In this document: piece after piece, positions 52,046-52,114 of the stretch
How the letters are laid out: the number at the start of each line of letters is the position of its first letter
Numbering within the stretch: position 1 is the first letter of the stretch
From: a virus
Taxonomy: Duplodnaviria > Caudoviricetes
Direction: 5' to 3' (one strand)
IMG/VR virus record: IMGVR_UViG_3300010348_001841
Length of the DNA stretch: 64,000 nucleotides
The notes under the pieces: model-generated
What the model was told of the DNA's origin: nothing
The model's database searches: none
What the model saw: the letters and a program-made list of their open reading frames with translations, nothing else
Position numbers and translations under genes: made by a program

Positions 52046-52114
52046 ATCGGAATGCTTTTTTTGCGTTTTCAAATTACAAGTTTGATGCTTTTTATTTTGC
52101 TGAACGCATTCCTT
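52046..52114 (-). ncRNA. Y-like RNA E (Thr UGU anticodon stem-loop cargo)
   Basis: GGAATGC/GCATTCC stem, CAGCAA, TCAAA-CTTGTAA-TTTGA. Confidence 0.78.

What the first reader, a model, noticed from the sequence alone, without database searches (positions are those of the whole stretch)
52046..52114. Minimal Y-like RNAs displaying a lone anticodon stem-loop
Between A-rich linkers, element E shows TCAAA-CTTGTAA-TTTGA, a 5-bp stem with the loop CU-UGU-AA as in tRNA-Thr. Element I (59918..59978) shows TTTCA-CGGTAAA-TGAAA, also 5 bp and 7 nt, with GUA at the centre but G33. Both look like protein-tethered anticodon baits.
Basis: partly seen in the sequence, partly recalled or inferred. Interest (0 to 1): 0.72.

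Follow-up and report, generated by a model that had tools for sequence, protein, structure and literature searches.

The report
Anticodon-arm mimic RNAs on Ro60-type handle
Two roughly 60-base RNA genes in this giant phage's tRNA cluster each carry a look-alike of a tRNA's codon-reading hairpin on a conserved "handle" that goes with a Ro60-like phage protein, so they are probably baits for proteins that recognise tRNA anticodons; that use is untested.

Summary
Both hairpins are real. They lie on the minus strand, the strand of all 57 tRNA genes. Each sits inside a tRNA-sized unit closed by a 7-bp stem: E at 52112-52049, I at 59976-59921.

The units belong to a conserved family: AAG start, closing stem, UnCAGCAA motif, variable cargo, stem, G. 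Both stems covary. The family clusters on the gene strand around a DUF2828/vWA gene (16658-18079) whose model folds like Ro60. Three members precede that gene here, and in relatives a cargo-less handle abuts its ribosome-binding site.

Of 85 distinct short members, 33 carry a hairpin whose 7-nt loop equals a real tRNA anticodon loop, against about 3 in shuffles. Lys(UUU) and Thr(UGU) dominate. E's CUUGUAA loop is kept in seven contigs with compensatory stem changes. I is weaker: it has G33, and its positional orthologs swap loops, one to 5 nt.

The handle resembles Dictyostelium Class I RNAs. Long siblings resemble YrlA. All Rfam scores stay below threshold.

Binding to the protein and a bait or decoy role are inferred. 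This scan has noted the same system many times on other DNA. I found no published description of these RNAs.

The parts
52049..52112 (-). Element E, a 64-nt handle RNA. Closing stem 52106-52112 / 52049-52055; motif GUUCAGCAA 52097-52105; hairpin stem 52081-52085 / 52069-52073; loop CUUGUAA 52074-52080; conserved G at 52048.
   Evidence: Sequence. Hit by the family model at 32.2 bits. Seven contigs keep the loop with compensatory stems. Infernal places the hairpin on the anticodon arm of the tRNA model, at 16.8 bits, below threshold.
59921..59976 (-). Element I, a 56-nt handle RNA. Closing stem 59970-59976 / 59921-59927; motif CUACUGCAA 59961-59969; hairpin stem 59948-59952 / 59936-59940; loop CGGUAAA 59941-59947; conserved G at 59920.
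   Evidence: Sequence. Full-length sub-threshold match to Rfam RF01414 (29.8 bits, gathering score 41.5). L001:331-388 has a compensatory A-U to G-C change in the closing stem.
47364..47456 (-). Sibling handle RNA (AGAAUUC...GAAUUCU-G) whose cargo contains a T-arm-like hairpin.
   Evidence: Descriptor scan. Orthologs at L001:16520-16601 and L002:10499-10579.
54375..54476 (-). Sibling handle RNA (GGGAUG...CAUCCC-G) with tRNA-like cargo.
54242..54357 (-). Sibling handle RNA (AGGUUCG...CGAACCU-G, motif variant CAGCAG). Its cargo is a permuted tRNA-like body that includes a CUGUAAA (Tyr-type) hairpin.
Evidence: Sequence read.
18416..18633 (-). Long handle RNA (AGAGUGG...CCACUCU-G), the first of three between a sigma70-like promoter (TTGACA 18678-18683, CATAAT 18655-18660) and the Ro60-like gene.
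   Evidence: Ortholog at L119:2757 onward.
18244..18343 (-). Second handle RNA upstream of the Ro60-like gene.
   Evidence: Ortholog at L119:3409-3503.
18096..18210 (-). Third handle RNA, with a T-arm in its cargo. Its 3' strand plus G directly abuts the Shine-Dalgarno sequence and start codon of the Ro60-like gene.
   Evidence: Weak full-length YrlA match (20.2 bits, E 0.44).
16658..18079 (-). Gene for a 473-aa DUF2828 + DUF7788 protein with a Ro60-like fold (helical-repeat ring plus vWA domain with a DxSxS MIDAS motif). It is the presumed partner of the handle.
   Evidence: Pfam. AlphaFold2 model with pLDDT 90.9. The 13 best Foldseek matches are all Ro60/TROVE, E 2e-9 to 7e-6. Homologs occur in 710 phage records.

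Best explanation
E and I are genes for small non-coding RNAs transcribed with the tRNA array and released from it. Each has two modules. The first is a conserved handle: an AAG start, a 7-bp closing stem, single-stranded UnCAGCAA right after the 5' strand, and G after the 3' strand. This is most likely the binding site of the phage's Ro60-like ring protein (DUF2828/vWA, gene at 16658-18079). The second module is a variable cargo, which here is a bare 5-bp/7-nt hairpin copying a tRNA anticodon loop: Thr(UGU) in E, and a Tyr(GUA)-like loop with G33 in I. The particle would present this anticodon-arm look-alike to a protein that reads anticodon loops. The most likely such proteins are host tRNA-cleaving defence nucleases, which it would sequester or distract. 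What is shown: the units exist, both stems covary, the family co-locates with and is co-oriented with the Ro60-like gene, that protein has a Ro60 fold, and anticodon-type loops are enriched. What is inferred: expression and processing, physical binding to the protein, and the bait or decoy role and its target.
For: Family and structure. The shared motif is non-random. Homologs occur in many viral contigs. On the model-fitted alignment, 98% of cells are paired, 9 of 12 pairs change on both sides, and 0 of 500 shuffles do as well. G-U pairs such as AGAGUAC/GUAUUCU fit the tRNA strand only.

Link to the protein. In 80 loci centred on the gene there are 134 handles on the gene strand against 12 on the other strand. 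Of these, 43 start within 500 nt upstream, and in 15 loci a handle ends within 40 nt of the start codon. In 5 of those 15 loci (two are the L001 and L063 contigs) it is a 32-33-nt cargo-less handle, seen with the ribosome-binding site right behind it; this looks like an autoregulatory operator. Three members precede the gene in this window. The Ro60 fold is shown.

Cargo. Of 85 distinct short members, 33 have a hairpin whose loop is identical to one of the anticodon loops of 851 tRNAs in the same data, against 3.2 +/- 1.8 in dinucleotide-preserving shuffles. With perfect 5-bp stems the count is 20 against 0.4. The commonest loops are Lys(UUU) with 10 and Thr(UGU) with 9. E's loop CUUGUAA is kept with stems UCAAA/UUUGA, UUCAA/UUGAA, ACAAA/UUUGU and UUUGU/ACAAA.

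Context. RNA ligase, Pth2 and nuclease genes lie beside the protein gene in relatives.

Literature. A 44%-identical protein occurs in Felix O1-type phages, the group Bas63 is said to belong to by earlier notes of this scan, not checked here. For Bas63 itself a preprint reports that the Ro60-like protein gp130 counters the Ppl defence, and guesses that some neighbouring 'tRNA genes' are its Y RNAs. [quoted passage not shown]
Against: There are no expression, processing or binding data. The hairpins are not stable on their own (dG about 0), and whole-unit folding is no better than shuffles. About 60% of short family members carry cargo that is not anticodon-like, with loops of 3-12 nt. I has G33 where tRNAs have U33, and its positional orthologs carry Lys, Asn or a 5-nt AUUGG loop. 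AriB also needs contacts outside the anticodon arm, in the D loop, so a bare arm may be a poor substrate or competitor for that enzyme. The one defence reported to be countered by a Ro60-like phage protein, Ppl, is not known to target tRNA. The members counted are related sequences, not independent events.
Confidence: 0.45

Rival explanations
1. The particle is the same (handle RNA bound by the Ro60-like protein), but the anticodon-arm cargo is aimed at ordinary tRNA-handling machinery and is not a decoy for defence nucleases. Candidates are aminoacyl-tRNA synthetases that read the anticodon (LysRS, ThrRS), anticodon-loop modification enzymes (t6A37 or queuosine pathways), or the phage's own RNA ligase and repair enzymes. 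The role would be to titrate or recruit them, or to act as a sensor or adaptor in tRNA repair.
For: RNA ligase, Pth2 and nuclease genes neighbour the Ro60-like gene. In bacteria Ro60 and Y RNAs sit in a tRNA-damage-responsive repair operon (paper PMC7790460, listed and not read in depth). Most cargo anticodons (Lys UUU, Thr UGU, Ile UAU, Asn GUU, Ser GCU) end in U36-A37, the class that carries t6A37; that class assignment is from my own knowledge. Changing U33 in the Tyr-type loops (I has G33, L001:15444 has A33) would remove the U33-G34-U35 element read by the queuosine-inserting enzyme; this too is from my own knowledge.
Against: Nothing here separates this reading from the decoy reading. 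The anticodon swapping between positional orthologs looks more like an arms-race trait than housekeeping.
Confidence: 0.22
2. The handles are cis-acting binding sites for the Ro60-like protein within the long tRNA precursor. They would be landing pads that control processing, stability or translation, as at the protein's own 5' UTR. The hairpin between the handle strands would be a structurally convenient spacer descended from tRNA remnants, with no target of its own.
For: Cargo-less 32-33-nt handles exist and abut the ribosome-binding site of the protein gene. Many short members have non-anticodon cargo. The handle motif aligns to tRNA positions 8-15 in the Infernal tRNA alignment of E, which hints at a tRNA origin.
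Against: Exact anticodon loops are about tenfold enriched over shuffles. E's loop is held fixed while both of its stems change. The A/U-rich cargo stems differ from those of the phage's own tRNAs, so they are not recent tRNA debris.
Confidence: 0.15
3. E and I are working 'armless' tRNAs, with acceptor and anticodon stems only, that are charged and decode Thr and Tyr codons.
For: There is a 7-bp terminal stem, a 5-bp/7-nt hairpin, and a 5' linker as long as the D-arm region. E scores 16.8 bits on the tRNA model.
Against: No CCA is encoded, although 53 of 56 tRNAs here encode it, and ARAGORN does not call them even in its mitochondrial modes. There is no T or D arm. The same handle closes clearly non-tRNA cargos and a 5' UTR operator. 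I has G33. The tRNA score is below the gathering score of 29.
Confidence: 0.02
4. They are chance hairpins or simple terminators or spacers in A/T-rich intergenic DNA.
For: Thermodynamic stability is weak.
Against: Conservation, covariation, strand bias and motif statistics all argue against chance. No G+C-rich stem or T run follows.
Confidence: 0.01

Closest known systems
Ro60 (Rsr) with Y RNAs, especially bacterial and phage YrlA (Rfam RF02553; Chen et al. 2014, PMC4201824) and Thermus phage phiLo Ro60 with Yrl1/Yrl2 (PMC12135203)
   Same: A ring-shaped TROVE-plus-vWA protein is encoded beside small RNAs whose 5' and 3' ends pair into a protein-binding stem and whose other end is a variable module that imitates tRNA. 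Long siblings of E and I have the YrlA layout (T arm, closed acceptor, D arm) and give full-length but weak YrlA matches of 20-34 bits.
   Different: The protein belongs to Pfam DUF2828/DUF7788, not TROVE. It shares only 11-18% identity with solved Ro60 structures. The handle is a short 7-bp stem without a bulge, followed by single-stranded UnCAGCAA, and not the long bulged helix or the CGAA motif of Y RNAs. E and I carry no T or D arm, only an anticodon-type hairpin. No score reaches the YrlA gathering score of 69.
Class I RNAs of dictyostelid social amoebae (Rfam RF01414; Kjellin et al. 2021, PMC7919456)
   Same: The design matches almost point for point: about 60 nt, an AAG start, a short closing stem that covaries, the conserved motif (C)CUUACAGCAA right after the 5' strand, an A/U-rich variable middle, and a CUG(U) end. 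I matches the model end to end at 29.8 bits with E 1.8e-4. Seven family members in other contigs match at 22-35 bits.
   Different: All scores are below the gathering score of 41.5, and E does not match at all. Class I RNAs are eukaryotic, have their own DUSE promoter, are reported as unique to Dictyostelia, and are known to bind an RRM protein, CIBP. I could not test whether they are related to a DUF2828 protein. Homology and convergence both remain open.
Bas63 gp130, the Ro60-like counter-defence protein of the PhageMaP preprint (10.1101/2024.10.10.617714)
   Same: Gp130 is described as a Ro60-like phage protein encoded directly upstream of a stretch of tRNA genes, and the authors suggest that some of those 'tRNA genes' are Y RNAs that associate with it. 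The window protein has homologs, about 44% identical, in Felix O1-type Escherichia and Salmonella phages.
   Different: I did not align the window protein with Bas63 gp130 itself, so that they are one family rests on the shared Ro60-like fold and setting. The preprint identifies no RNA partner, handle or anticodon-arm cargo. The defence it counters, Ppl, is proposed there to degrade DNA.
Phage tRNAs that replace or escape cleaved host tRNAs (T5 tRNA-Lys, -Thr and -Asn against PARIS AriB, PMC12409363; T5 tRNA-Tyr against Retron-Eco7, PMC11555353)
   Same: These are RNA answers, encoded in a phage tRNA cluster, to anticodon-directed defences. The identities involved (Lys UUU, Thr UGU, Asn GUU, Tyr GUA) are those most often displayed by the handle RNAs.
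   Different: Those are complete, chargeable tRNAs that restore decoding. E and I cannot be charged or decode, and could act only by binding.

Membership tests
Handle-RNA family that accompanies DUF2828 Ro60-like genes (no published name or Rfam entry found) | Closing stem of 6-7 bp formed by the 5' and 3' ends, with pairing kept through compensatory changes. | tested here: met
   GGAAUGC/GCAUUCC in E and AGAAUAC/GUAUUCU in I. Helix 1 is 99.4% paired, and 5 of its 7 pairs change on both sides.
Handle-RNA family that accompanies DUF2828 Ro60-like genes (no published name or Rfam entry found) | Single-stranded motif nUnC(A/U)GCAA directly after the 5' strand, A/G-G at the 5' end preceded by A, and G after the 3' strand. 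| tested here: met
   E has GUUCAGCAA and I has CUACUGCAA. Both are preceded by UAA and followed by G.
Handle-RNA family that accompanies DUF2828 Ro60-like genes (no published name or Rfam entry found) | A DUF2828/DUF7788 gene in the same genome, with handles co-oriented and clustered around it. | tested here: met
   The gene lies at 16658-18079 on the same strand with three handles directly upstream. In 80 related loci there are 134 handles on the gene strand against 12 on the other.
Handle-RNA family that accompanies DUF2828 Ro60-like genes (no published name or Rfam entry found) | Physical binding of the handle by the Ro60-like protein. | not testable with these tools
   This is inferred only, from gene linkage and from the handle's position at the gene's ribosome-binding site.
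Y RNA / YrlA (RF02553) | Score at or above the Rfam gathering score of 69. | tested here: not met
   There is no YrlA match for E or I at E up to 10. The best sibling scores are 20-34 bits.
Y RNA / YrlA (RF02553) | tRNA-like domain with T arm, D arm and a closed acceptor stem. | tested here: not met
   E and I contain only one 5-bp hairpin. The domain is present in long siblings such as L001:4911-5053 and L064:1168-1289.
Y RNA / YrlA (RF02553) | A Ro60 (TROVE plus vWA) protein encoded nearby. | tested here: inconclusive
   The fold is Ro60-like. The Pfam family is DUF2828, not TROVE. The gene lies 34-42 kb from E and I, although it is directly beside three siblings.
Dictyostelium Class I RNA (RF01414) | Score at or above the Rfam gathering score of 41.5. 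| tested here: not met
   I scores 29.8 bits. E has no match.
Dictyostelium Class I RNA (RF01414) | AAG start, 6-bp closing stem, the 11-nt motif with conserved T3, C6, C9, A10 and A11, a CUGU end, and a length of about 60 nt (PMC7919456). | tested here: met
   I reads AAAGAAUAC-CUACUGCAA...GUAUUCUGU and is 56 nt. E reads AAGGAAUGC-GUUCAGCAA...GCAUUCCGA, so its end is CCGA, not CUGU. See the alignment and the paper text.
Dictyostelium Class I RNA (RF01414) | Dictyostelid origin with the DUSE promoter about 60 nt upstream. | tested here: not met
   The units lie in a phage tRNA operon, 7-9 nt from their neighbours in the array.
tRNA (RF00005) | Cloverleaf with D and T arms, an encoded or added CCA, and a score of at least 29 bits. 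| tested here: not met
   E scores 16.8 bits and I has no match. ARAGORN finds nothing in any mode, and neither unit encodes CCA although 53 of 56 tRNAs here do.

The most novel reading that the evidence does not exclude
The Ro60-like ring and its handle RNAs form a modular display system. Phages would plug different tRNA parts, either whole permuted tRNA bodies or bare anticodon arms, into one protein-binding handle, and would swap the displayed anticodon (Lys, Thr, Tyr, Asn, Gly and others) to track the tRNA-cleaving defence nucleases of their hosts. That would be an RNA-based, programmable decoy arsenal. The dictyostelid Class I RNAs, so far unexplained and thought unique to social amoebae, would be eukaryotic relatives of the same handle and would work with a DUF2828-type Ro60-like protein.
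Probability: 0.15. Interest if true: 0.85.

Novelty: new variant of a known kind. Interest (0 to 1): 0.62.

Why it matters
tRNA cleavage is now recognised as a common bacterial defence, and the known phage answers are replacement tRNAs and repair enzymes. A phage particle that presents only the anticodon arm on a Ro60-type scaffold would be a third kind of answer.

It would also give a reported counter-defence protein of the Ro60-like kind (Bas63 gp130) concrete candidate RNA partners. It would assign a job to the tRNA-mimicking part of Y-type RNAs, which is still unexplained. The work would be directly testable in the Felix O1-type E. coli and Salmonella phages that carry homologs of the protein.

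The near-identical design of the Dictyostelium Class I RNAs, whose mechanism is unknown, offers a second entry point.

Tried and rejected
No whole genome is held for this window.

MAFFT misaligned the cargo hairpins of the first four and eight elements. I therefore seeded the covariance model from three well-aligned members and let Infernal align the rest.

True members had to be picked out with a stem-plus-motif descriptor, whose false-positive rate I estimated from the opposite strand (12 against 134).

A 'longest stem' heuristic for the cargo hairpin is noisy in A/U-rich sequence. I replaced it with a fixed 5-7-5 test against real tRNA loops.

Single-sequence AlphaFold2 of the protein failed, with pLDDT 38. 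phmmer against PDB sequences gave only designed armadillo-repeat proteins. The protein atlas search added nothing beyond the DUF2828 name.

BLAST of the region against known phages found only tRNA-level similarity.

I could not find out what the Class I RNA interactor DDB_G0281243 is, so a Dictyostelium DUF2828 link is untested.

The armless-tRNA and chance-hairpin readings were considered and rejected. I did not run complex prediction, because it does not take RNA.

Full report
**What the window is.** All 57 tRNA and tmRNA calls lie on the minus strand. The window also carries rIIA, endonucleases and other phage genes. It is therefore part of a very large T4-like phage. The contig holding the identical Ro60-like protein is 241 kb. 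No whole genome is held, and no named phage is close at the DNA level.

**The observation.** On the minus strand, E and I are tRNA-sized units in the tRNA array.
- E lies between a CCA-ending minihelix and tRNA-Phe.
- I lies between tRNA-Asp and tRNA-Thr(UGU).
- Spacers of 7-9 nt separate each unit from its neighbours, as between true tRNAs.

The shared 23-nt pattern occurs twice in the window against 0.01 expected. Folding energy alone is unconvincing. Whole-unit z-scores are -1.25 and -0.21, and each isolated hairpin has dG of about 0.

**A conserved family.** A related contig (L001) has both units in the same places, with compensatory changes. AGAAUAC/GUAUUCU becomes AGAGUAC/GUACUCU, and GGAAUGC/GCAUUCC becomes AGAAUGC/GCAUUCU.

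Three searches recovered dozens of members in uncultured phage contigs, always on the tRNA strand:
- a pattern scan;
- a stem-plus-motif descriptor;
- a covariance model seeded from three members.

On 22 distinct sequences aligned to the model, 98% of cells pair. Nine of 12 pairs show changes on both sides. No shuffle out of 500, and no slid register, comes close. The caveat is that the alignment is fitted to the model. G-U pairs fit only the tRNA strand.

The same handle also closes much longer cargos. These include circularly permuted tRNA bodies, for example L001:4911-5053, L064:1168-1289 and window 54242-54357.

**The protein partner.** The ORF at 16658-18079 hits Pfam DUF2828 plus DUF7788.
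- With an 82-sequence alignment, AlphaFold2 gives pLDDT 90.9.
- The 13 best PDB matches are all Ro60/TROVE structures over the full length (phage phiLo, Xenopus, human, Deinococcus), at E 2e-9 to 7e-6 and TM 0.4-0.65.
- A DxSxS MIDAS motif is invariant.
- The family occurs in 710 phage records, some annotated 'Ro-like RNA binding protein'.

In this window a sigma70-like promoter is followed by three handle RNAs. The last of them ends directly at the Shine-Dalgarno sequence of this gene.

In 80 loci centred on the gene, the descriptor finds 134 handles on the gene strand against 12 on the other. Of these, 43 start within 500 nt upstream. In 15 loci a handle ends within 40 nt of the start codon; in five of them it is a 32-33-nt handle with no cargo. 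A protein-binding site placed on the ribosome-binding site of the protein's own mRNA is the classic layout of translational autoregulation. This is my main reason to think the handle is what the protein binds. It remains an inference.

RNA ligase, Pth2 and nuclease genes flank the gene in relatives.

**The cargo.** Among 85 distinct short members (44-76 nt), 33 contain a 5-7-5 hairpin with at least 4 of 5 pairs whose loop is identical to an anticodon loop of one of 851 tRNAs in the same sequences. Dinucleotide-preserving shuffles give 3.2 +/- 1.8, with a maximum of 10. With perfect stems the count is 20 against 0.4.

The loops found were:
- Lys(UUU): 10
- Thr(UGU): 9
- Tyr(GUA): 2
- Gly(UCC): 2
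- single cases of Asn, Ile, Ala, Thr(CGU), Leu and Gln, and four different Ser loops

A looser test (Y-U-NNN-R-N loop) gave 29 of 65 against 8.5. Seven-nucleotide loops are over-represented, 19 against 4.9.

E is a clean case. CUUGUAA is the Thr(UGU) loop, and it is kept in seven other contigs while the hairpin stem changes by compensatory steps and the handle stem changes too. Infernal's tRNA model lays E's hairpin on the anticodon arm, at 16.8 bits, below threshold.

I is weaker. Its loop equals the phage's tRNA-Tyr loop CUGUAAA except for G at position 33. The units sitting directly after tRNA-Asp in relatives carry CUUUUAA (L001), CUGUUAA (L202) or a 5-nt AUUGG loop (L205). Tyr-type cargos elsewhere have U33 (L198, L206) or A33 (L001:15444).

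So loops do not vary freely, but the displayed anticodon is exchangeable. About 60% of short members show no anticodon likeness.

**Mechanism.** The best-supported picture is a Ro60-type particle with two parts. The handle is the anchor, and the cargo is a tRNA part offered to something that recognises it.

For bare anticodon arms, the obvious candidates are proteins that read the anticodon loop. I favour host tRNA-cleaving defence nucleases for three reasons:
- The commonest cargos (Lys UUU, Thr UGU, with Asn GUU and Tyr GUA also present) are the tRNAs reported as targets of PARIS AriB and Retron-Eco7 effectors.
- Cargo identity is swapped between close relatives.
- A Ro60-like phage protein, Bas63 gp130, is reported to counter a defence system, and the window protein has 44%-identical homologs in Felix O1-type E. 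coli and Salmonella phages.

Three points weigh against this. AriB also needs D-loop contacts. Ppl is not known to act on tRNA. Nothing here measures binding.

Targeting of synthetases, modification enzymes or repair enzymes is a serious rival. So is a purely cis-acting role of the handle with a neutral spacer as cargo. Decoding as an armless tRNA is very unlikely: neither unit encodes CCA although 53 of 56 tRNAs here do, there is no T or D arm, and the handle is shared with non-tRNA cargos.

**Comparison with known families.** Rfam has no family for these RNAs at gathering thresholds. Below threshold there are two informative matches.
- Short members, including I (29.8 bits, E 1.8e-4, end to end), match the Dictyostelium Class I RNA model RF01414. 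The published definition of that class is an AAG start, a 6-bp covarying stem, the motif CCUUACAGCAA, a variable middle, a CUGU end and a length of about 60 nt. It fits I almost point for point. That class is reported as unique to Dictyostelia.
- Long members match YrlA weakly over its full length.

E and I therefore work like Y RNAs but are not members of YrlA. They resemble Class I RNAs but do not reach that family's score or share its setting.

In the paper library I found no description of this handle family or of anticodon-arm cargos. The PhageMaP preprint only guesses that some tRNA genes next to gp130 may be Y RNAs.

**Earlier notes of this scan.** I consulted the scan's notes from then on. 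They hold many reports of the same protein-handle pairing, of the Class I resemblance and of anticodon-arm cargos on other genomes. They also list the six handle copies in this tRNA array. I had reached the family, the Class I and YrlA matches and the link to the DUF2828 gene beforehand. The notes gave me the PhageMaP lead and the coordinates of two siblings, which I then read myself.

Noticed in passing
window 52121-52170 (-): Directly 5' of E there is a 50-nt CCA-ending unit that no tRNA finder calls. It has an 8-bp acceptor-like stem (GUGUCUUG/CGAGACAC) followed by GCCA, a small CUGU-CU-ACAG hairpin, and a GACGA-AAAUUA-UCGUC hairpin. It looks like a tRNA minihelix.
   Followed up: no
window 51857-51962 (-): The gap between tRNA-Phe and tRNA-Met holds an uncalled tRNA-like RNA. 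It has a GGACCUU/GAGGUCC acceptor stem, a T arm (GAUGGUUCAAAUCCAUC) and an encoded CCA, but an oversized, odd body.
   Followed up: no
L119:3954-3986, L121:3954-3985, L129:1764-1795, L125:2859-2890: In relatives, a cargo-less 32-33-nt handle (for example AGAAUUU-UAACAGCAAACUUAAAAU-AAAUUCU-G) sits between a sigma70-like promoter and the Shine-Dalgarno sequence of the Ro60-like gene. This is probably an autoregulatory operator.
   Followed up: partly
window 57971-58090 (-): This is a CCA-ending tRNA-like gene whose anticodon-arm region is replaced by the family handle (…GGUGAUCCUG AUA AGGAUAC GUUCAGCAA…). It is a circular permutation of the handle-plus-tRNA design.
   Followed up: partly
L001:16615-16676, L063:3128-3189, L115:3141-3202, L002:10591-10657, L203 (minus strand): A conserved sub-class of short handle RNAs carries a 6-7-bp stem (UUUCAAA/UUUGAAA) with an invariant 9-nt loop ACCAUUAUC that matches no anticodon loop. 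Its target, if it has one, is unknown.
   Followed up: no
window 60635-60721 (-): ARAGORN calls a tRNA with a four-base anticodon (UGUA) in an enlarged loop, between tRNA-Trp and tRNA-Tyr. It may be a frameshift-type or otherwise odd tRNA.
   Followed up: no
window 60060-60459 (-): A 400-nt G+C-richer gap with no tRNA call lies between tRNA-Ala and tRNA-Asp. It contains a T-arm-like GGUUCGAGUCCC and long complementary segments, and may be a structured RNA or an intron-bearing tRNA.
   Followed up: no
alignment of E: In Infernal's tRNA alignment, the handle motif (U)nCAGCAAA falls on tRNA positions 8-15 (U8-A9-G10-C11…A14) and the closing stem falls on the acceptor stem. This hints that the handle itself descends from a tRNA.
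   Followed up: no
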